Below, piece by piece: positions 43,201 through 59,116 of a stretch of DNA of 64,000 nucleotides; position 1 is the stretch's first letter, and each line of letters begins with the position of its first letter. A model generated the notes under the pieces. That model was not told where the DNA came from and did no database searches. It was given only the letters and a program-made list of their open reading frames with translations. A program made the position numbers and the translations under genes. Location: NCBI GenBank assembly GCA_964016885.1, contig OZ024756.1, forward strand, positions 14,818,001 to 14,882,000, read 5' to 3'. This DNA is from Eledone cirrhosa. Taxonomy: Eukaryota.

Positions 43201-46200
43201 CTTGTGTGGATGTGTGTGTGTGTGGTGTGTGAGAAGAGCACTATCTCTGTAAGAATGATATCCCACCTTGTGTGGATGTGTGTGTGTGTGGTGTGTGAGA
43301 AGAGCACTATCTCTGTAAGAATGATATCCCATCTTGTGTGGATGTGTGTGTGTGTGGTGTGTGAGAAGAGCACTATCTCTGTAAGAATGATATCCCACCT
43401 TGTGTGGATGTGTGTGTGTGGTGTGTGAGAAGAGCACTATCTCTGTAAGAATGATATCCCACCTTGTGTGGATGTGTGTGTGTGTGGTGTGTGAGTAGAG
43501 CACTATCTCTGTAAGAATGATATCCCACCTTGTGTGGATGTGTGTGTGTGTGGTGTGTGAGTAGAGCACTATCTCTGTAAGAATGATATCCCACCTTGTG
43601 TGGATGTGTGTGTGTGGTGTGGGAGAAGAGCACTATCTCTGTAAGAATGATATCCCACCTTGTGTGGATGTGTGTGTGTGTGGTGTGGGAGAAGAGCACT
43701 ATCTCTGTAAGAATGATATCCCACCTTGTGTGGATGTGTGTGTGTGGTGTGGGAGTAGAGCACTATCTCTGTAAGAATGATATCCCACCTTGTGTGGATG
43801 TGTGTGTGTGGTGTGTGAGAAGAGCACTATCTCTGTAAGAATGATATCCCACCTTGTGTGGATGTGTGTGTGTGTGTGGTGTGTGAGTAGAGCACTATCT
43901 CTGTAAGAATGATATCCCACCTTGTGTGGATGTGTGTGTGTGGTGTGTGAGAAGAGCACTATCTCTGTAAGAATGATATCCCACCTTGTGTGGATGTGTG
44001 TGTGTGTGTGGTGTGGGAGAAGAGCACTATCTCTGTAAGAATGATATCCCACCTTGTGTGGATGTGTGTGTGTGGTGTGTGAGAAGAGCACTATCTCTGT
44101 AAGAATGATATCCCACCTTGTGTGGATGTGTGTGTGTGTGGTGTGTGAGTAGAGCACTATCTCTGTAAGAATGATATCCCACCTTGTGTGGATGTGTGTG
44201 TGTGTGGTGTGTGAGTAGAGCACTATCTCTGTAAGAATGATATCCCACCTTGTGTGGATGTGTGTGTGTGGTGTGTGAGAAGAGCACTATCTCTGTAAGA
44301 ATGATATCCCACCTTGTGTGGATGTGTGTGTGTGTGGTGTGGGAGAAGAGCACTATCCCACCTTGTGTGGATGTGTGTGTGTGTGGTGTGTGAGTAGAGC
44401 ACTATCTCTGTAAGAATGATATCCCACCTTGTGTGGATGTGTGTGTGTGTGTGGTGTGTGAGTAGAGCACTATCTCTGTAAGAATGATATCCCACCTTGT
44501 GTGGATGTGTGTGTGTGGTGTGTGAGAAGAGCACTATCTCTGTAAGAATGATATCCCACCTTGTGTGGATGTGTGTGTGTGTGTGGTGTGGGAGAAGAGC
44601 ACTATCTCTGTAAGAATGATATCCCACCTTGTGTGGATGTGTGTGTGTGGTGTGGGAGTAGAGCACTATCTCTGTAAGAATGATATCCCACCTTGTGAGG
44701 ATGTGTGTGTGTGTGTGGTGTGGGAGTAGAGCACTATCTCTGTAAGAATGATATCCCACCTTGTGTGGATGTGTGTGTGTGGTGTGTGAGAAGAGCACTA
44801 TCTCTGTAAGAATGATATCCCACCTTGTGTGGATGTGTGTGGTGTGTGAGTAGAGCACTATCTCTGTAAGAATGATATCCCACCTTGTGTGGATGTGTGT
44901 GTGTGGTGTGTGAGAAGAGCACTATCTCTGTAAGAATGATATCCCACCTTGTGTGGATGTGTGTGTGTGGTGTGTGAGAAGAGCACTATCTCTGTAAGAA
45001 TGATATCCCACCTTGTGTGGATGTGTGGATGTGTGTGTGTGGTGTGTGAGAAGAGCACTATCTCTGTAAGAATGATATCCCTCCTTGTGTGGATGTGTGT
45101 GTGTGTGGTGTGTGAGTAGAGCACTATCTCTGTAAGAATGATATCCCACCTTGTGTGGATGTGTGTGTGTGGTGTGTGAGAAGAGCACTATCTCTGTAAG
45201 AATGATATCCCACCTTGTGTGGATGTGTGTGTGTGTGGTGTGTGAGTAGAGCACTATCTCTGTAAGAATGATATCCCTCCTTGTGTGGATGTGTGTGTGT
45301 GTGGTGTGGGAGAAGAGCACTATCTCTGTAAGAATGATATCCCACCTTGTGTGGATGTGTGTGTGTGTGGTGTGTGAGTAGAGCACTATCTCTGTAAGAA
45401 TGATATCCCACCTTGTGTGGATCTGTGTGTGTGGTGTGTGAGTAGAGCACTATCTCTGTAAGAATGATATCCCACCTTGTGTGGATGTGTGTGTGTGTGG
45501 TGTGTGAGTAGAGCACTATCTCTGTAAGAATGATATCCCACCTTGTGTGGATGTGTGTGTGTGGTGTGTGAGTAGAGCACTATCTCTGTAAGAATGATAT
45601 CCCACCTTGTGTGGATGTGTGTGTGTGTGGTGTGGGAGAAGAGCACTATCTCTGTAAGAATGATATCCCACCTTGTGTGGATGTGTGTGTGTGTGTGGTG
45701 TGTGAGTAGAGCACTATCTCTGTAAGAATGATATCCCACCTTGTGTGGATGTGTGTGTGTGGTGTGTGAGAAGAGCACTATCTCTGTAAGAATGATATCC
45801 CACCTTGTGTGGATGTGTGTGTGTGGTGTGTGAGTAGAGCACTATCTCTGTAAGAATGATATCCCACCTTGTGTGGATGTGTGTGTGTGTGGTGTGTGGT
45901 GTGTGAGTAGAGCACTATCTCTGTAAGAATGATATCCCACCTTGTGTGGATGTGTGTGTGTGGTGTGGGAGAAGAGCACTATCTCTGTAAGAATGATATC
46001 CCACCTTGTGTGGATGTGTGTGTGTGTGGTGTGTGAGTAGAGCACTATCTCTGTAAGAATGATATCCCACCTTGTGTGGATGTGTGTGTGTGAGTAGAGC
46101 ACTATCTCTGTAAGAATGATATCCCACCTTGTGTGGATGTGTGTGTGTGGTGTGGGAGAAGAGCACTATCTCTGTAAGAATGATATCCCACCTTGTGTGG

Positions 46201-49132: not shown

Positions 49133-49230
49133 GAGAGAAGGAGTAAGAGGGGAGAGAGGTATATGTAGAGAGTGAGGGGAGAAGAATGAAGGAGAGATTT
49201 ATAGACAGACAGACAAATAGATAGATAGAT

Positions 49231-50788
49231 TTCTATTTATTGCCACTAGGGCGCAAAAGAAGGGGACAAATACAAGGGGGCGGGGGGCGGGGAGTTTACA
49301 CAAAAAGGCGAGTAAAGAAAACAAATAACAAATATAAAATTAACAATAAAGTCCTTAATAAGGAGGGGGCGTTTGGGGGGGTCGCACAAAAGTGTGCAAC
49401 CCCTTCTCCTCAGGAGCACAGAGAGAGGGTGCTCCCTCGTTCCTTCCTCTTTTCCACCTACAGGCTGATGTAGAGTGAAGGCCCATTCACACGGGCCATT
49501 CTCGCCACTTTCACCCACCTTTCATAAAAACGACTGGGGTTGAGCACCTCTCTCTCCATCCTGATCCTTATTCCGAAATGATATCGGAAGAAACGTATCA
49601 GTTGTTGGCCAGAGAGAAAGGTGCCCGACCTGTGTCCTTTAGACGCGTCCACCATACAACCTCTTTCACCATGGCTATTACGCACAGAAACACCGCCTCT
49701 CCTTCATTTTTGAAGGGGGGAGGCGGCTTAATCGTTACAATGGCCTCGGTTGTCAACCGGATCGGTCCCACCCGTGACAGCAGTCGTTCGTCATAGCCCC
49801 ACAGATCGGCTACGCCCGAGCAGTGTACCAATGCATGTGCAACGGTTTCCTCGTCGCACACGCATCTGGGACAGATCTTTTTGGCGGGGTCCCTACCCGG
49901 GCGCCCGTGTCTGTAGAGATTTTCTCGAACGGGTAGAGCCCCTCGGTAGCACTGCCAGGCCAGGGACTGCTGGAAGTTATCCATAGGTCCCGGGCTGAAT
50001 GTCCTACCGAACAGGCTGGCCAGTTCGTCTTCCTCCATGCCTATGGCTTCTCCGAGGGCGTCGTCGCACCTGAGAATGCCGCGGTGGAGTCTCCACTGAT
50101 AACCGGGTCCGCCTGCCAGAGGGCCGTGAGCAGATAGATAGATAGATAGATATGTTTCTTTATTAGCCACAGGGGGCACAAAAGAAGGGGACAAATACAA
50201 AGGGGGAAGTTTACATACAATAAAAACGTGTAAAATGTTATCACAAATGCAATTTAAAAAATTAGTCGATTTTCCCCAAAAGGGGGAGACAGTTCATATG
50301 GGTAACACATACCCCCCCCAAAAAAATGTGCAACCCTCATCTTCAGGAGTACGAAGAGTTTGTACTCCTTTCCTCTCCTCCTCCTTTTCCTCAACCTACA
50401 GGCTGATATAGAGAGAAGGCCCATTCACTCGGGCCATTCTCGCCACTTTCACCCACCTTTCATAAAACTTGCTGGGGTACAGCACCTCTCTCTCCATCCT
50501 GATTCTTCTTCCAAAGTGGTATTTGAAAAAAAGAATCAGTTGTTGGCCGGAGAGAAAGGTGTCTGACCTCAGCCCTTTCAACCTTGTCCACCATACAACC
50601 TCTTTCGCCATAGCTATCACACAAAGGAAAACCGCCTCGTCTTCATTTTTGAATAGATAGATAGATAGATAGATAGATAGATTTCTTTATTAGCCACAAG
50701 GGTGCAACAAGAAAGGGGACAATACAAAGACATGCCGGGGATTTTACATACAGTCGTGTAAAAAATATAAAAACAAACAATTTCAACA
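49231..50788 (-). mobile_element. Three tandem 5'-truncated Tx1-clade copies (49231-50131, 50153-50653, 50683-50788) separated by (GATA)n
   Basis: ORF2 C-termini ..RVNGPSLYISL* in the first two; shared 3' end with AATAAA; GATA tracts at every junction. Confidence 0.9.
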
Positions 50789-51042
50789 TAGATAGATAGA
50801 TAGATAGATAAATTTCTATTTATTTGCCACGAGGGCACAAAAGAAGGGGACATTTACACAGTGGGGGAGTTTACATAAATCGAGTAAAGAAAAAAGGAAT
50901 AACAATAATAATATAACAATAAAAAGTCCTCAAAAGGGAGGGGGCGTGTTGGGGATTGCACATACCCCCGAAAAGTGTGCAACTCTTTTCGCGGGGGAAG
51001 CCCAGAGAGGAGGCGCTCCCCCTTTCCTCTTCACTTCTTCAC

Positions 51043-54000
51043 CTACAGAACAATGTAGAGAGAAGGCCCATTTACACGGGCCATTCTCGCTTCTTTCACC
51101 CACCTTTCATAAAACTGTCTGGGACCAAGCACTTCTCTCTCCATCCTGATTCTTCTTCCGAAGTGGTATCGGAAGAAGTAAACCAGGTGATGGCCGGAGA
51201 GAAAGTCACCCGACCTCAGACTTTTCAGGCGCGTCCACCACACAACCTCTTTCATCATGGCTATTACGCACAGAAAGACCGCCTCTGCTTCATTTCTGAA
51301 GGGAGGAGGCGGCTTGATGTTCACCACAGACTCGGCGGTTAATCGAATCGGCGCCACACGCGACAGCAGTCGTTCGACGTAGCCCCACAGATCGGCAACG
51401 CCCGGGCAGTGTACCAGTGCATGCGCAACGGTCTCCTCGTCGCGCACGCATCTGGGACAGATCTTTTTCGCGGGATCCCTGCCCGGGCGCCCGTGTCTGT
51501 AGAGCTTTTCTCGAACGGGCAGAGCCCCCCGGTAACACTGCCAGGCTAGGGACCTCTGGAAGTTGTCCATGGGTCCCGGGCCGAAAGTTCTACCGAACAG
51601 GCTGGCCAGTTCGTCCTCCTCCATGCCTAGCGACTCTCCAAGGGTGTCGTCGCCCCTGCTAGCCACCAACCCTCTATAGAATGTCGAGGTGGATTCTCCA
51701 CTGACAGTCGGGTCCGCTTGCCAGATAGCCGTGAGCGCCTGGGCACACTCGGTGTGCCAGTTGCCCAGTTTTCTCGGTCTTTGCTTCACCCAGGATTGCA
51801 GTTCGGTGAGCGAGACGAGCTGTGGGAAGGCTCGCCTCACAAACGGGGCCCACACCGGCTGACCGTTGAGGAATACCTGTAGATGCCGTAGCCTCAATGC
51901 GTGCCTACGCATCAACAGCCACGGCATACCCAGCCCTCCTTTCGAAGGGTGCTGGCAGCAGATGGATCTCCTCACCATGGGAGGCCGCTTCTTCCAGAGG
52001 AACTGGAAGAGCATGCGTTCCATGATGGTGAGCTTTTCCTTGGGGCAAGGCACGACGGTCAGGCGGTAGTAGATGACGGACGCTATGTAAGCGTTCGTCA
52101 CCTCCGCCCGACCTTTCAGTGATAGTTTGCACTTGGCCCACTTCTGGGTCAGCGCAAACACCCTGCTCGTCACCTCGCCCCAATTCTTCTCCACCTGGAG
52201 GTCCGGTCCGAACCAGACCCCGAGCAGCTTCACCGGGCCCTCCGTCCACCGCCCGACGACACCGTCTAACGGCATCGGTTTGCCCCTCCACGTTCCGAGT
52301 TGCAAACCGACTGACTTGTCCTGGTTCAGCTTAGCCCCCGTCAGCCTTTCGTATTCCTCCAGTAGGGTGGCGATCGCCCCGATTTCCGAGGCGTCCGCCA
52401 CCATTACTGTTACGTCGTCGGCATAGGCCGAGACCGCTTTGTGCAATCCGGGTTCCAGGGGTATGCCCCGCAGCAACTCCAACTTCCGCAGCAGTGGCTC
52501 GAGAGTCAATACGTACAGAAGGGAGGAGAGGGGGCACCCCTGTCTGATGGATCGGGTGATTTGAAACGGCTCCGAGAGGTAGCCGTTTACTTTAATCCTA
52601 GAGTAGATGTTGCCACTGTGCATGGCAGAAATCCAGCCCCTGAAAACGGGTCCGAAGCCCGCCGCCGCTAGCACCGCATCCAGGTAACCATGGTCGACCC
52701 TATCGAACGCCTTAGATTGATCCAAGTTGATCAGGGCCCCACCAAAGCCGGGTTCGTAGCCAACCCTCTCTATGATGTATCGCATGAGGTGGAGGTTGTC
52801 GTGAATGGACCTGGACGGGATAGCGCATGTCTGCGCGTCTCCCACCAAACCACCCACCACAAGCGCCAACCTCTTCGCCAACACCTTGGCCAAAATCTGT
52901 AACTCTGCATTCAGCAGAGTTATGGGCCTAAAGTTACTTAAGTCGTCCCCCTTGCTCTCGTCCTTCCTCACTAGCGTGACCACGCCCTTGGTCACAGAAC
53001 AGGGAATTCTCCCGTTCTGTTGCCAGTTGCAATAGACAGCCTCGAGGAGTTCGGAGAACAAGACCGGCATAGCTAAATAAAGTTCGTATGGTAGACCATC
53101 GAGACCCGGGGATTTGCGTCTGCTGCATTGGCTGAGCGCTTCCCCGATTTCAGTGGCTGTGATTGGCCCTTCGCAGCACTCCGCTTCGCCGCTCGAAAGA
53201 CGCGGTAGACCGTCGAGGTATGGACCGAAGTCCACATCCCCGTCCGGCCCCCCGCCACCTCCGAACAGTCGAGCAAAGTGCCTTTGAAAGGTCTCGCACA
53301 TTCGCTCAGGTTCAAGGATCACCCGTCCATCCTGGTCTCGCAAAGACCGAATGGTGGATTTAATCCCACTCTTGGCTTCTGTCACGCGGGCCCAGCTAAC
53401 AGCTTTGGTCCCCTCGTTTCCTAAAGCACGTATTTTACTTCGGACAACGCAGCCTTCGTGCTTCGCGTCAAAGAACTGGCTCAATGCCGTTCTCGTCGCT
53501 AACACTCTGGCTACGTCTCCGCTCCTAATCGCCTCTTCTAGTTTATCTGTTAACTCCCTTTCCCTCCTATTTCTATTCGCCGCTAGTTCCTTACTGTAAC
53601 CTATCGAACTTACTCTAATCTCTCTCTTTAGAGATATCCACCACCTACTGTTGACGATCGCTCCCGTCAACCGCATCTTAACTAAGCTACTAATCCGGTT
53701 TCTGTAATCTTTCTTTGTCGGTAAGGACAAGTTCATCTTCCAGTAACCGGGACCCTGTCTATGCGTTCTATCAAGGTTGACCACGCAGGTCACTAATTTG
53801 TGATCTGAATAGCCAACCATGATCAGTTCTGGACAACTAAATACGTCCCTATCCTTACTCCTAACCAAAAACCTATCTAGGTACGATCTTGATTGTCCAC
53901 TGCGGTTTGCCCAGGTCCAGGTTGGCGCAGTTGGACAATCTAGTCGAAATCTATCGACCAGGTCGAATCGATCGAGTAACCCCTTGAGGCTGCTACACCC

Positions 54001-54476
54001 CCCTCTATCGGGACATGCCCCTGCATAGTCCCAACGCGCATCTAGGATTCCATTCCAGTCCCCCACTAAAAGCAGGGAACGCGACGTTCCTAGAAAAGTC
54101 TCCAGACGTTGGAAGAAGTCGGCTCTTTCCGCCCCGAAGGGAGCATAAAGACCGACCAGTCTGAAAGCCCCGCCTTCACCACCTCCGACGTCCAGCACCA
54201 GTAATCGACCCCCCGGGTCCGAGTGAACAATCTGTACGTCGAGAGTCAGACGTTTATCCAGCAGTACGGCAACCCCCCCCCCCCCCCGCCTCCGGGTTGA
54301 CAGAGAGATGCGTGCATCTCAAAGTCATCGAAGGCGGGCGCCAGCTGTCTCACGCTGCTGATCCGACTCTCGCAAACAACCATCACATCTATACTTTGTG
54401 ACCTGAGGTCACTTAGAAGCTTTGCTTGCTTCCAAGCTGAGCTCAGGCCACGCGCGTTCAAACAGCCAACTCTCAA
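51043..54476 (-). CDS. Tx1 ORF2: APE endonuclease, reverse transcriptase, C-terminal zinc knuckle (~1140 aa); one frameshift in a 15-nt homopolymer at 54273-54287
   Basis: LNARGL, E, GVAVL, VGLYAP, GDWN, SYLDRFL, SDHKLV; KSPGLDG, NFRPITLLN, LDQSKAFDRVDH, RQGCPLS, AYADD, KLLGV; CPRC..ETVAHALVHC. Confidence 0.92.
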
Positions 54477-54629
54477 TTGATCTATTTTGGTGTTGAAAGT
54501 GAAGAAAGAAAAGCACTTACCTCTCCGGGTTGCGTAATTTCCATGGCATCAGGTGTGTTGGGTGGAGGGATGTTTTGTGGTGGTGTGGGGGTACACGTGT
54601 GTGGTGGGGTTGGGGTATTTGGAGTTGTG

Positions 54630-56318
54630 TCAGGGAGAGGGGCGGTTATGGGGAAATCTTTCAAGAGGACGCGATTCAACGGTTTTAAACAGGGGGGGGC
54701 TCACGTCCCGTCTAAATTGTTCTTTTAAGGAACGATAAAGGTCCAGAGGGACCTTTATCATTTTTAAATGGGTGAAGTTCTCTGTTGAGATAAAGTTTGG
54801 CCCTTCGGTCTGCACCATAGGGTTATTGTTTATTAATTTAACCAGTTTTTTGTTTTCTTTATTTATATATGTGTATTGCAACGTCTTTTTTTGTGATGCT
54901 GTCAATGTTTCGGAGAGGGGAGGCGCAGATTTATTTTTGTTTGTTGAGGGTGGGGTGTTTTTGATTGGAGTTGGTGTTTGTGTGTGGGTTATTTGTGGTG
55001 TGCTGGGTGTGTGTTTTCTTTTTTTTCTTTTAACTTGTCTGAAGGCTTCTCCTCCTTCTTCTTCAGAAGTTGGGGGAAACTCTTCAGCGCTAGGTGGGAG
55101 GGACGTGTTGTGTGGTTGTTTTTTTTTTGCGGGAGGGGTAGATTTGTTACTGTTTTTTTTATTATTTGTTTGGAATGGGTTTTGTGGTGGTGGTGGTGGT
55201 AATGTTTGTGTCGTGCTTGTGGTTGGTGATGGTGGTGGTGATGTTTGTGTTGTGGTTGGTGGTGGTGATTTTTGTGTCGTGCTTGTGTTTGGTGCTGGTG
55301 GTGGTGATGTTTGTGTTGTGTTTGTGGTTGGTGGTGTCTGTATTTTGTTTGCTGTGTGTGGTATTAGTGTATTTTTGGAGGTGGGTGGTGCTGGTGTACT
55401 GTTTGTGGTGGGTGTGGGCAATAGTCCTTTTTGGGGGATACGTTTCGGGCAGTTAGCCTTAACGTGTCCCCTTTCCATGCATAAATAGCATGCTGGTCTT
55501 CTCCCCTCTACAATTATGTCTATTGGGGTAAGGTCATCCAGCCAGATGCGATCCGGGATTTGTGCTATTCTTTCGGGCCTCATTTGGACTAGTATGTCGA
55601 GGCCCATTCCCAGGAACGCATCTCCAGTTGCCTTCCCCATTGACAGCATAGTGTCTTCGCCCATATCAATGAAGCCAGCAATAGCCCACCAGAAGTCCAT
55701 TGTGGGCAGCATTGTTTTTACTTTTACTCTCTGTGTTCTTCTACCCATGTAGGAGGGATAGAAGCTATATGTTGTCGACGAGAGTGGGCTTAGGGAAAGC
55801 TTCTCCGCCGTTTCTTTGTCTCTTGTTAGGACCGAAATGCTGCCATAGAGTCGGTCCTTTCGTATGAAGAGAATATTCTTCATATAGTCTTTTAGGACTA
55901 ACTCTATTTCCATTTGGCTGGGCTGTGCTGGCTTTCTTGTCTGGTTCAGTATAGTTCTGTATATAACTGTGTTTTCTGCTCTGGCTTTCTTGAATTCTGG
56001 GGGGGAGTTAATGGAAAACATTCCGTTCTCCCCCAAAACAATATGTTTCTTTGCTTCGGCCAGTTTTTCTCTGGCGGCAGTTAGGTCAATTGGTGTGTAT
56101 GTAATGGATTGCTTTGTTTTCTGGGCGAAAGTTGCCCTGTCGTTATTTGTATTATTTTCTGTTTGTTTGTTTTCTGTTTGCTCATTTTCCTTAACATTTG
56201 TTTTTTCATTTTGTTTGTTTGTTTCAATGTCTAATTTTGTTGTAATTATTTTTTGTTCTTCAGACTTGGGGGGCGTGGCAGAGCTAATGGCAGACATGTC
56301 TGCCATCTTTTCCGCCAT
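54630..56318 (-). CDS. Tx1 ORF1 (gag-like, zinc knuckle, Pro/Thr-rich tail); may extend to 54482 if the G8 run at 54692-54699 is a frameshift
   Basis: First ATG at 56318; VEGRRPACYLCMERGHVKANCP; basic QVKRKKRK. Confidence 0.85.
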   Translation of the reverse strand: MAEKMADMSAISSATPPKSEEQKIITTKLDIETNKQNEKTNVKENEQTENKQTENNTNNDRATFAQKTKQSITYTPIDLTAAREKLAEAKKHIVLGENGMFSINSPPEFKKARAENTVIYRTILNQTRKPAQPSQMEIELVLKDYMKNILFIRKDRLYGSISVLTRDKETAEKLSLSPLSSTTYSFYPSYMGRRTQRVKVKTMLPTMDFWWAIAGFIDMGEDTMLSMGKATGDAFLGMGLDILVQMRPERIAQIPDRIWLDDLTPIDIIVEGRRPACYLCMERGHVKANCPKRIPQKGLLPTPTTNSTPAPPTSKNTLIPHTANKIQTPPTTNTTQTSPPPAPNTSTTQKSPPPTTTQTSPPPSPTTSTTQTLPPPPPQNPFQTNNKKNSNKSTPPAKKKQPHNTSLPPSAEEFPPTSEEEGGEAFRQVKRKKRKHTPSTPQITHTQTPTPIKNTPPSTNKNKSAPPLSETLTASQKKTLQYTYINKENKKLVKLINNNPMVQTEGPNFISTENFTHLKMIKVPLDLYRSLKEQFRRDVSPPLFKTVESRPLERFPHNRPSP

Positions 56319-56541
56319 GCTGCCAAGAAAGAAATTTTTCGGCAAAAATAGATATTTATTTTACCCCCTAAAAAGGGGGTAAATGCAAAAATGTTTCCCT
56401 AAATAACAGGGGTTAGTGTTCCAAATGTGTTGCACTAAAAAATTTATCCGGTACTTACAATAGTAAGGGTAAATCCCGATGGAATAGCGGAGCCGATGCG
56501 AAGCGTGTCTTACTCTATCAAGATAGATAGATAGATAGATA

Positions 56542-56741
56542 ATTTTCTTTTTATTTGCCACCAGGGCATTAAAAAGTGGGACAAGTACAATGGGGGGAGT
56601 TTACATAACAAGGCGTCCTCAATAAGGAGGAGGCAATAACAAAATATAAAAATAAAATAAAATATAATAAGATAAAATTTATAACAAAATCCTCAATAGA
56701 GAGGAGGCGCCTTGGGGGTCGCACACACCCCCGAAAAAAAA
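56542..56741 (-). mobile_element. Additional Tx1 3' UTR fragment between (GATA)n tracts
   Basis: tttatttgccaccagggc..gggggagtttacata..gggggtcgcaca matches the other 3' ends. Confidence 0.8.
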
Positions 56742-59116
56742 ATAGATAGATAGATAGATAGATAGAGAGGAAGAATCAAACACTATATTTTAGTTATCTA
56801 TCATATGTATCAATCTGGAAGCAATGAACGGCAAAGTTAACCCTGAGATTTAAACACAGACCACACACTATAGACCCCTACACAATATTTCTATGTTAAT
56901 GTATTAACACAAACATACATTTTATCTGACTGTGAGTATTTAAAAGCTATGATCATATTGCAGAAGCAACAGTTAGAAAACTATAGTTCATATCGCTAGA
57001 GGGTAGGACGCCATGCTTTGAAGCATTGAGTTACCTCCCTTTATGATCTGAGTTCAAATCCCGTAAGGATGAAAGGAAAAGTTAACCTCGGCAGGATTTG
57101 AATTCGGATCAGAAAGGGGCGTAACTCTGTGCTACAAAGCATGTTGTCCCACCCTCTACCGATACTGCCAAACATGAAATCAAAATAATATTCTGTTAAA
57201 ATATATTTTATAACACCCCTAAAAATGTTTCTCCCCAGTAAAGAACTCACATCGATAAAAGAATGTTACACATATGTATCATCTATCGACAAAATGACAC
57301 ACGTACGCTTCAGTATTGTTTAATAAAATAGGCGTTCTCTGATCATTATTTTGCAGAGTTACGTCCCTTTACGATCTGAGTTCAAATCCCGCCGAGGTTA
57401 ACTTTGCCTTTCATTCATACAGAGGTCGATAAAATAAAGTACCAGTAATGTACTGGGTAATTGCTGGCCTTGTGCCAAAAATAGAAACAATTATTTTGCG
57501 GTGGATTGGCAGTATCGGTAGAGGGTCAGACGCCATGCTTTGCAGCAAAGAGTTACGACCCTTTATGATCTGAGTTCAAATCCCGCCGAGGTTAACTTTG
57601 CCTTTCATCCTTACGAGGTCGATAAAATAAAGTACCAGTAATGCACTGGGATAATTGCCGGCCTTGTGCCAAAAGTAGAAATAATTATTTTACAAATGTA
57701 TTAATCTTTTTTTTTTAAATTCATATTAGTGGTCCGTAGGATTTAAAACTATGAAAGCGACCGCTGCTTTAGGGGGTAGCTTAAGAAAGGTTCTTACATA
57801 AAAATTATAATAAAGGTTTTTAGATAAATATGAGCATTCTTTAATGAATAGTTCTGAAACAATTTTGTAACTTCAAAAAAAGTCGAAAGGGTGTCTCGTG
57901 CCCCGAGGCTCACTAGGCCAGTGCTTAACTCGGTTTCTGTGGTGTTAAGTGACTGAGAGTAACCCCCCCCCCCCCCACGACATTAGGATCGTACGTCCAA
58001 CACCCTTACCACTAGGCCACGCGCCTAAAGAGGGCTAACGCTATAGTAACAATTAAAAAGTAAGGCATTGATACATTGGTTATGCCAGAATATTGCTTCA
58101 GCCGACAGCTTCGATATAAATCAATTGAAATATAAACAACAGTTATACTAGTAATTCGAAACTAGCGTTGGTTTGGTCTCACAATAAAAATTATGAGTTA
58201 TGACAGTCACTGATAATGATTTTATAATAACATTAGTTTTTTTAAATTCAATATTTTATTACTATTTTAAAATACACAGGCGCGCAGGCATACGTACTCG
58301 CACGTGAATACACACACACAAACTCTCTCTCTCTTATATATATATATATATATATAAATTAATAAAAACAATGAAATAAAAACAAAGAACAAGTTCCTTA
58401 TATCAAAAAATTCATCATTTTACGATCGTTTCTGGGATGTGTGTTGGTATGTATATCATGTTTGAGATCTATGTAAAAATATTACAAATTATCAGAGAAA
58501 ATATACATACCTTCACATATACATGCCGTGCTCAGAAATGATGAGATGTGTTTATTGAAAAAAAAAAAGAATTGATATAAAGTGTCTGTTTGGGAACAGA
58601 TTTTGAATTGACCAACAGAAATGATTTAGAGGTCAAGTTGATAGAATAACAGTAGTAGAAATTAAATCTAGGAGTGGAGAAGTACAAATTAAGGCTTTGA
58701 ATTAAAAGAATACAATGGTGAGGAGACAATAAAGTCAAGTAAATAGTGAAGTGTACACGAAAATTTGATGTTATTAAAGAATGTTGTTAAAAACGAAGGA
58801 AAACATTTTTTTTGGGGGGATAAGGGTATTAGTGAGAAATACCAATCTTATTTAAACTACAAGGAATCTAGATACATAACAGGAAAATAAATTAATTGAT
58901 AGGTATACTTACAGGGATAAAATTATATTAATTCATATGAATGTGATAAATAAAGAAGTATAAAATTAAAGCAATAAAAAATATATGTATGGAAAAACTG
59001 AGATAGATAAACAAATTTATAAAATGTATTGTATCTATACAGACATTGATGATGTTAAAGATATTAATTATAATTAATAATCATAGGTATTAAATGTGAT
59101 AAATAGGGGGGATATA

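What the first reader, a model, noticed from the sequence alone, without database searches (positions are those of the whole stretch)
49217..56765. Tx1-clade retrotransposon family that appears to target (GATA/TATC)n microsatellites and builds head-to-tail stacks
Seen: five same-strand copies (four truncated, one full length) with (GATA)n at all six junctions, including both outer edges. The 3' UTRs are diverged, so several subfamilies chose the same tract, and they end AATAAA followed by TATC with no poly(A). Known: Tx1-clade APE endonucleases can be sequence-specific (Kibi for (TC)n, Koshi for (TTC)n, Keno for U2, Mutsu for 5S, Dewa for tRNA spacers). Inference: this is a (TATC)n-specific lineage, a target I do not know to be described for Tx1, using a self-renewing landing pad.
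Basis: partly seen in the sequence, partly recalled or inferred. Interest (0 to 1): 0.85.

Follow-up and report, generated by a model that had tools for sequence, protein, structure and literature searches.

The report
GATA-microsatellite-targeting LINE retrotransposon lineage
A family of jumping genes in what is likely an octopus genome sits almost always inside GATA repeats, in one orientation, and piles up head to tail, likely because its own cutting enzyme picks that repeat, while a close sister family sits in AAT repeats instead, which would make target choice testable.

Summary
Confirmed and extended. Five same-strand copies from five subfamilies (one full length) are separated by six GATA tracts. 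Of 150 genomic copies sampled, 133 abut AGATA at a fixed register. 107 have at least 11/12 GATA-phase bases there, against 0.095% of background positions, and none is in TATC phase. 64 of 94 called 5' junctions also carry GATA. 32 copies have target-site duplications (9-30 bp, median 14) containing non-repeat bases, so the tract is genomic target, not an element tail. One subfamily is very young: 556 exact 3' ends, and 34 of 78 full-length loci have both ORFs intact. The ORF2 tree places the lineage among U2- and 5S-flanked (Keno/Mutsu-like) elements with moderate support; no named Tx1 or vertebrate L1 was available. New here: a sister family (68% identical ORF2, same 3' end motif) sits in (AAT)n instead, with 28 of 28 3' ends and 318 of 324 5' ends. 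Likely mechanism: an endonuclease nick after GATA, RNA-DNA pairing that fixes the start of reverse transcription, and duplication of the tract. I found no GATA-targeting Tx1 in the papers searched, but Repbase and Dfam could not be checked. New variant of a known kind.

The parts
49217..49230 (+). GATA tract 1, outer edge, at the end of a GACA/GA compound microsatellite
49228..50131 (-). 5'-truncated copy, subfamily A (about 900 nt; end of ORF2 plus 3' UTR)
   Evidence: 92.5% to full-length L237; 3' end by unified rule
50132..50152 (+). GATA tract 2
50153..50652 (-). 5'-truncated copy, subfamily B (about 500 nt)
   Evidence: 97.4% to L221-L223
50653..50682 (+). GATA tract 3
50680..50787 (-). 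5'-truncated copy, subfamily C (about 108 nt)
   Evidence: 99% to L242
50788..50810 (+). GATA tract 4
50811..56520 (-). Full-length copy, subfamily D (5.7 kb), the youngest in the stack
   Evidence: 99.5% to L085; 556 exact 3' ends in the genome
51043..54485 (-). ORF2: APE endonuclease, reverse transcriptase, zf-RVT; frameshifted in this copy at the C15 run 54273-54287
   Evidence: Pfam PF03372, PF00078 and PF13966 (the last below its curated cut-off)
54630..56318 (-). ORF1 with one CCHC knuckle and a Pro/Thr-rich tail (562 aa here, 611 aa in intact copies)
   Evidence: zf-CCHC E 0.018, below cut-off
56521..56541 (+). GATA tract 5
56542..56741 (-). 5'-truncated copy, subfamily E (200 nt)
   Evidence: 97.5% to L229/L230
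56742..56766 (+). GATA tract 6, outer edge
33106..33640 (+). Second, two-copy stack of the same lineage on the other strand: TATC tract, B fragment 33129-33240, TATC tract, fragment of a further subfamily 33274-33626, degenerate TATC

Best explanation
This is a stack of five copies of an APE-type non-LTR retrotransposon lineage that sits in (GATA/TATC)n tracts in one orientation with 9-30 bp target-site duplications, likely because its endonuclease nicks the GATA strand just after a GATA unit and primes reverse transcription there. Steps: (1) inferred: ORF2p nicks 5'-(T)AGATA^G-3'. (2) inferred: the RNA runs past AAUAAA into the downstream UAUC tract and pairs with the freed GATA-3' end, which fixes the start of copying and leaves out the poly(A). 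(3) duplication shown, nick inferred: a second nick about 14 bp away duplicates the target. (4) shown in outcome: each insertion leaves GATA on both sides, and later copies of any subfamily land there in the same orientation. A sister family with the same 3' end motif sits in (AAT)n instead, likely through a changed endonuclease specificity.
For: 3' flank: 133 of 150 end in AGATA; positions -1 to -7 match GATA phase in 89-99%; 0 of 150 are in the opposite phase. 5' flank: 64 of 94 called junctions against 0.32% background. Of 79 distinct full-length D copies, 78 have AGATA on one side and 79 GATAG on the other. Duplications holding non-repeat bases: 39 of 94 copies against 3-11 in 20 mismatched-pair shuffles; 32 end exactly at the 3' junction. 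Sequence beyond the duplication continues in GATA phase at 62-81% per position, which neither a tail nor a duplication can supply. Fifteen copies abut variants (GGTA, AATA, TATA, AATATT), so the abutting unit is not copied from the RNA. Same-strand family sequence lies in the 3' flank of 49 of 150 copies, opposite-strand in 2. Control: the 3' regions of 30 other LINE loci of this genome showed no GATA tract by TRF and mostly (ATT)n. APE catalytic motifs are intact. Tx1L endonuclease nicks its own target almost exclusively (PMC1950540, passages).
Against: No nicking assay, RNA data or empty allele from reads. 30 of 94 called 5' junctions lack a GATA tract, though some are miscalled breakpoints, and 26 of 94 show no duplication of 9 bp or more. 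Only 3 of 10 informative full-length D copies show a duplication, against 27 of 57 truncated ones (p = 0.49). Some sites have one GATA unit or none (L234, L241, L199, L233). PMC1950540 (abstract) found nicking in vitro less defined than integration in vivo, so the endonuclease may not be the whole cause. The copies were the best-scoring hits, so they are biased to young elements.
Confidence: 0.68

Rival explanations
1. The endonuclease is only mildly selective (AT-rich, A-ending sites). The specificity comes mainly from pairing of read-through UAUC RNA with whichever nick exposes GATA-3', so target choice is inherited from the donor's flank.
For: The most conserved positions are the 5-7 next to the nick, and conservation decays with distance. 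The GATA and AAT families share the 3' end motif and most of the hairpin loop. PMC1950540 (abstract) says factors beyond nicking contribute.
Against: GATA phase persists beyond the nick on the side the RNA cannot pair with (62-81%). 26 endonuclease columns separate all GATA families from both AAT families, including the loop tip, though shared ancestry alone would also give such columns. No GATA-type end in AAT, or the reverse, was found among 170 + 25 classified ends.
Confidence: 0.24
2. TATC is an element-encoded tail, as in L2, CR1 or RTE elements, and insertion is otherwise random.
For: GATA abuts the 3' end in 135 of 150 copies and there is no poly(A).
Against: GATA lies at 5' truncation points (64 of 94). 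Imperfect flanks are duplicated on both sides. 15 copies abut non-GATA units, and the perfect run is 7 nt or less in 56 of 150.
Confidence: 0.03
3. The stack is a tandem duplication, recombination product or assembly artefact.
For: Some homogeneous arrays repeat the same junction sequence (L083/L084; C24; C3b) and may be post-insertion duplications.
Against: The window's five copies belong to five subfamilies, 57-72% identical at the 3' end, with different truncation points. Mixed stacks recur across the genome, including one in an arbitrarily chosen 10-kb stretch (L259).
Confidence: 0.05

Closest known systems
Kibi (TC)n and Koshi (TTC)n of teleosts; crocodilian Tx1 families in (TTCC)n/(TTTC)n (PMC4494074, passages and section 15)
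   Same: APE non-LTR elements of the Tx1 group inserted preferentially into a microsatellite.
   Different: Target unit is TATC (and ATT for the sister family), not a pure pyrimidine repeat; host is likely an octopod.
Keno (U2 snRNA; PMC4494074) and Mutsu (5S rRNA; name-target link recalled)
   Same: Same ORF1 CCHC and ORF2 APE-RT-zf-RVT layout. U2- and 5S-flanked elements are the nearest labelled relatives (24-29% ORF2 identity).
   Different: They target one site in an RNA gene; this lineage targets a dispersed repeat. One U2-flanked element (L274) has an A-run at its 3' end, while this lineage has none.
Dong (TAA)n, Waldo (ACAY)n, Mino (AC)n (PMC3812793, passages); Togen (TG)n (PMC4640811, passages)
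   Same: Non-LTR elements that use microsatellites as landing sites; Dong shares the TAA/ATT unit with the sister family F.
   Different: Other clades (R4, R1 and NeSL-related; the first two recalled); none is listed with GATA.
'L1-Tx1' class in the Octopus vulgaris repeat annotation (PMC13282606: part 1 of 3 read, term search of the full text, one supplement)
   Same: 13 recently active families, 421 near-full-length insertions totalling 2.29 Mb, which fits 5.7-kb young copies. The families may be in that library if the host is that species or close to it (not tested).
   Different: 'Target' and 'GATA' occur 0 times in its main text; no insertion preference is reported.

Membership tests
L1 group APE non-LTR retrotransposon | ORF1 plus ORF2 with N-terminal APE, RT and C-terminal zinc motif | tested here: met
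   Pfam; PDB sequence hits are LINE-1 endonucleases and loop chimeras at E 7e-5 to 7e-4
L1 group APE non-LTR retrotransposon | 5' truncation and variable-length target-site duplications | tested here: met
Tx1 clade | RT phylogeny groups it with Tx1 elements rather than other L1 lineages | tested here: inconclusive
   IQ-TREE, 25 rows: sister to the 5S-flanked group at 91/97, in an unresolved ingroup with the U2-flanked group. FastTree runs with a distant outgroup put it outside that group with weak support. No named Tx1 or vertebrate L1 sequence was in the tree.
Tx1 clade | ORF1 with CCHC knuckle, not the vertebrate L1 ORF1 domain (criterion recalled) | tested here: met
   One CCHC motif, Pfam E 0.018 below cut-off, no Transposase_22 hit. 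Weak: other L1 lineages here also have CCHC.
Tx1 clade | Target preference: over 20% of flanks of one type (criterion in PMC4494074) | tested here: met
   107 of 150
Tx1 clade | Endonuclease nicks the target sequence specifically | not testable with these tools
   Needs an assay
Kibi / Koshi | Insertion into (TC)n or (TTC)n | tested here: not met
   Flanks are TATC/GATA
Kibi / Koshi | RT clusters with Kibi/Koshi | not testable with these tools
   No named sequences available
LINEs with element-encoded microsatellite tails (L2/CR1/RTE type) | Repeat at the 3' end only, 5' flank random | tested here: not met

The most novel reading that the evidence does not exclude
An undescribed Tx1-related lineage has switched microsatellite target within one host lineage. 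Five or more subfamilies use (TATC)n and two sister families use (ATT)n. Both sides are currently amplifying with over a hundred near-identical copies, and their ORF2 proteins are 68% identical. This is a natural pair in which a few endonuclease residues (26 candidate columns, including the hairpin-loop tip) would decide the target.
Probability: 0.5. Interest if true: 0.72.

Novelty: new variant of a known kind. Interest (0 to 1): 0.58.

Why it matters
How APE endonucleases choose microsatellites is called 'not well understood' in PMC3812793. Loop grafts between distant elements gave altered but not transplanted specificity (PMC1950540). Two young sister families at 68% identity with different repeat targets, many intact copies and the same RNA 3' end would let endonuclease-swap and RNA-flank-swap experiments separate protein recognition from RNA pairing. 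The finding also adds TATC to the list of targets. It explains kilobase-scale LINE stacks and arrays of up to ten 5.8-kb copies in this genome, and it warns that GATA microsatellite markers in this animal often sit beside high-copy LINE ends.

Tried and rejected
Sequencing runs for an empty allele: none was listed, so no reads were laid. Metagenome scan with a 41%-identical relative found no locus. The profile scan gave 80 loci, nearly all about 30% identical, so the target of the nearest outside relatives (P0004 group; Argonauta protein P0060) is unknown. Single-sequence fold of the endonuclease was too poor to use (mean pLDDT 47.8). The idea that full-length copies lack duplications was not supported (3 of 10 against 27 of 57, p = 0.49), and perfect-run length did not differ between the two sides (p = 0.90). 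A first junction caller ran into shared GATA tracts and was replaced. Of ten search slots, ten paper searches were answered, and none listed a paper on a GATA/TATC-targeting Tx1. The library lacks most subscription papers; Kojima and Fujiwara 2004 was not read, only cited by the papers read. Figure 3 and the supplements of PMC4494074, which list targets of known Tx1 families, could not be seen and may bear on novelty. PMC1074724 was not held. Three look-ups of earlier scan findings returned nothing. Flanking DNA at 5' ends of solo F copies was not obtained, and no truncated F copy with both junctions was held, so duplications are untested for F.

Full report
OBSERVATION. The window holds six GATA-phase runs of 14-30 nt between 49217 and 56766. 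Between them lie five minus-strand copies: A 49228-50131, B 50153-50652, C 50680-50787, D 50811-56520 (full length, 5.7 kb) and E 56542-56741. Their 3' ends are 57-72% identical to each other. Each is 92-99.5% identical to a separate genomic subfamily. D encodes ORF1 with one CCHC knuckle and ORF2 with APE, RT and zf-RVT. In this copy ORF2 is frameshifted at a C15 run. The host is likely an octopod: the only homolog with a species name is an Argonauta hians protein, 64% identical, and the assembly is 3.0 Gb.

SAMPLING. I searched G000 with the 3' end of each window copy, excluding the tract, and with D's 5' end and endonuclease, then fetched flanks. Hits are the best-scoring ones, so the sample leans to young copies. 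The 3'-flank set has 150 copies (D 39, E 29, C 29, B 28, A 25). It leaves out the window's own loci, L100 (no anchor) and five copies sharing a flank with another; two adjacent copies of one dimer (L083, L084) remain. Background is ten 10-kb stretches at round coordinates that I chose.

3' JUNCTION. All 150 ends fit one layout, which in window orientation is flank | 2-nt subfamily tag | TTTCT-like motif. The flank ends in AGATA in 133, in GATA in 135 and in ATA in 143. Positions -1 to -7 match GATA phase in 89-99%, falling to 60-74% by -18 to -20. At least 11 of 12 GATA-phase bases were found in 107 of 150 copies, against 190 of 199,400 background positions, and TATC phase in 0 of 150. AATAAA lies 6 or 8 nt before the end in 149 of 150. 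Fifteen copies abut other units, such as (GGTA)n, AATA, TATA or AATATT, so the abutting unit comes from the genome and not from the RNA.

5' JUNCTION. Of 94 called junctions in subfamilies A, B, C and E, 64 have GATA within -4 to +30 nt, against 38 of 11,740 background windows. Five further copies ran off the locus, 12 served as references, and some of the 30 negatives are probably miscalled breakpoints. Duplications of 9 bp or more that contain non-repeat bases were found in 39 of 94, against 3-11 in each of 20 mismatched-pair shuffles. 29 others are compatible with a pure-GATA duplication and 26 show none. 32 end exactly at the 3' junction, with lengths 9-30 and median 14. In these rebuilt empty sites the ten bases past the nick are in GATA phase at 62-81%. 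A few sites have one GATA unit (L234, L241) or none (L199, L233). Among 79 distinct full-length D copies (from 84 of 89 loci), 78 have AGATA on the 3' side and 79 start with GATAG on the 5' side. Only 3 of 10 informative ones show a duplication, which does not differ significantly from 27 of 57 truncated copies. As a control, the 3' regions of 30 other LINE loci from this genome showed no GATA tract by TRF and mostly (ATT)n.

STACKS AND ACTIVITY. Same-strand family sequence lies in the 3' flank of 49 of 150 copies and opposite-strand sequence in 2. 24 of 79 full-length D copies have another family 3' end within 150 bp of their 5' end. A five-copy D array spans 28.5 kb on C7. Five junctions at four loci have a single GATA between copies. 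Inference: a copy landing at the first GATA beside an older copy's 5' end would duplicate sequence identical to its own 5' end, which hides the duplication; template jumping is the alternative. Whether stacking exceeds random choice among tracts is untested: with 14 tracts per 100 kb and two family ends in the same 100 kb, abundance alone could give much of it. D has 556 exact 3' ends, and 34 of 78 loci checked have both ORFs intact.

SISTER FAMILY. Searching G000 with the RT of a U2-flanked relative returned a further young family, F. Its ORF2 frame is 1150 codons, 68% identical to D, with the same 3' end motif. All 28 distinct F-type 3' ends held abut AAT repeats of 6-40 nt. 318 of 324 exact F 5' ends genome-wide are followed by AATAATAAT, and ten are spaced 5.8 kb apart on C1. 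Among 170 GATA-flanked and 25 AAT-flanked ends classified by a looser pattern, none had the other family's motif. In a 14-row tree the five GATA subfamilies and the two AAT families fall on separate sides (100/99 among labelled rows), with the partial Argonauta protein inside the GATA group at weak support. 26 endonuclease columns separate them, including the tip of the segment that aligns with the L1 hairpin loop: Ser in GATA families, Ile or Met in AAT families. Shared ancestry would also produce such columns. No duplication could be tested for F, so element-encoded ends are not excluded there.

MECHANISM. Shown: fixed register, one orientation, duplicated target, persistence of the tract on both sides. 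Inferred from established target-primed reverse transcription: a first nick on the GATA strand after GATA and a second about 14 bp away. Inferred: read-through UAUC pairs with the primer, because AAUAAA lies too close to the end for cleavage to fall inside the element (typical distance recalled) and no poly(A) is copied; a role of read-through RNA in R1 elements is recalled, not read. The main rival is that pairing, not the endonuclease, supplies most of the specificity.

CLASSIFICATION. No named Tx1 sequences were available. I labelled relatives by Rfam hits in their flanks (U2: five loci; 5S: two). IQ-TREE on 25 rows and 860 columns (14 of 39 rows dropped for run time, including the distant outgroup and long branches) places the lineage plus an unnamed 39-44%-identical sister group beside the 5S-flanked group at 91/97, rooted on DUF4283-type L1s. 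FastTree runs with a distant outgroup put it outside the U2 + 5S group with weak support. It works like a Kibi/Koshi-type Tx1; Tx1 membership is likely but not proven, and it is not Kibi or Koshi by target.

LITERATURE. PMC4494074 (passages, section 15; figure and supplements not seen) lists Tx1 targets TC, TTC, TTCC/TTTC, U2 and transposons. PMC3812793 (passages) lists ACAY, AC, TC, TTC and TAA. PMC4640811 (passages) adds TG. PMC13282606 (part 1 of 3, term search, one supplement) counts 13 active L1-Tx1 families in Octopus vulgaris without mention of targets. PMC1950540 (abstract, passages) supports the hairpin loop as a determinant and notes other factors. PMC3747384, PMC8869645 and PMC9635652 (passages) added nothing on GATA. 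Ten searches listed no GATA-targeting Tx1; Repbase and Dfam were not checked.

VERDICT. The feature is real and sequence-directed: a new target for a known kind of element. The GATA/AAT sister pair is the most valuable part. Interest 0.58.

Noticed in passing
L431-L460; e.g. G000:C1:423.37-423.42 Mb: Sister family F (68% ORF2 identity) flanked by (AAT)n, with a ten-copy 5.8-kb-period array.
   Followed up: partly
window 54485 (- strand); L085:5290-5340: Subfamily D has ATA where sister subfamilies have the ORF2 ATG, overlapping the ORF1 stop of intact copies, in all 75 D copies printed (variants seen once were not printed). Yet D is the most recently amplified, so ORF2 may start without AUG.
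   Followed up: partly
window about 54510-54530 (- strand): A splice-donor-like GTAAGT/GTGAGT followed by a pyrimidine-rich stretch lies about 30-45 nt upstream of the ORF2 start in most copies of all subfamilies, including F.
   Followed up: no
window 33106-33640 (+): Second two-copy stack of the same lineage between TATC tracts.
   Followed up: partly
L199, L247 (subfamily C): Two independent C copies abut TAATATT instead of GATA; L199 has an 18-bp duplication.
   Followed up: no
L162/L163/L173/L176/L190: One A insertion with identical flanks at five loci, so amplified inside another repeat.
   Followed up: no
L093: A truncated D copy joins directly to the middle of a related subfamily element with no GATA; possible template switch or recombination.
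   Followed up: no
window 56500-56541: D's 5' end plus the first tract unit is an inverted repeat (TCTATC-AA-GATAGA) that could form a small hairpin, and the 5' ends of all five GATA subfamilies share an ACGCGT/ACACGT-like motif.
   Followed up: no
window 6784-9093 (+) and 38045-38554 (+): ORFs that look by eye like a broken Helitron Rep/helicase and a Penelope-type GIY-YIG end (names recalled, not tested).
   Followed up: no
window about 39400-45900: Long minisatellite array whose translation repeats HTHIHTRWDIILTEIVL.
   Followed up: no
L282, L291, L307 (metagenome loci): L1-group elements whose ORF1 carries a GDSL/SGNH esterase domain.
   Followed up: no
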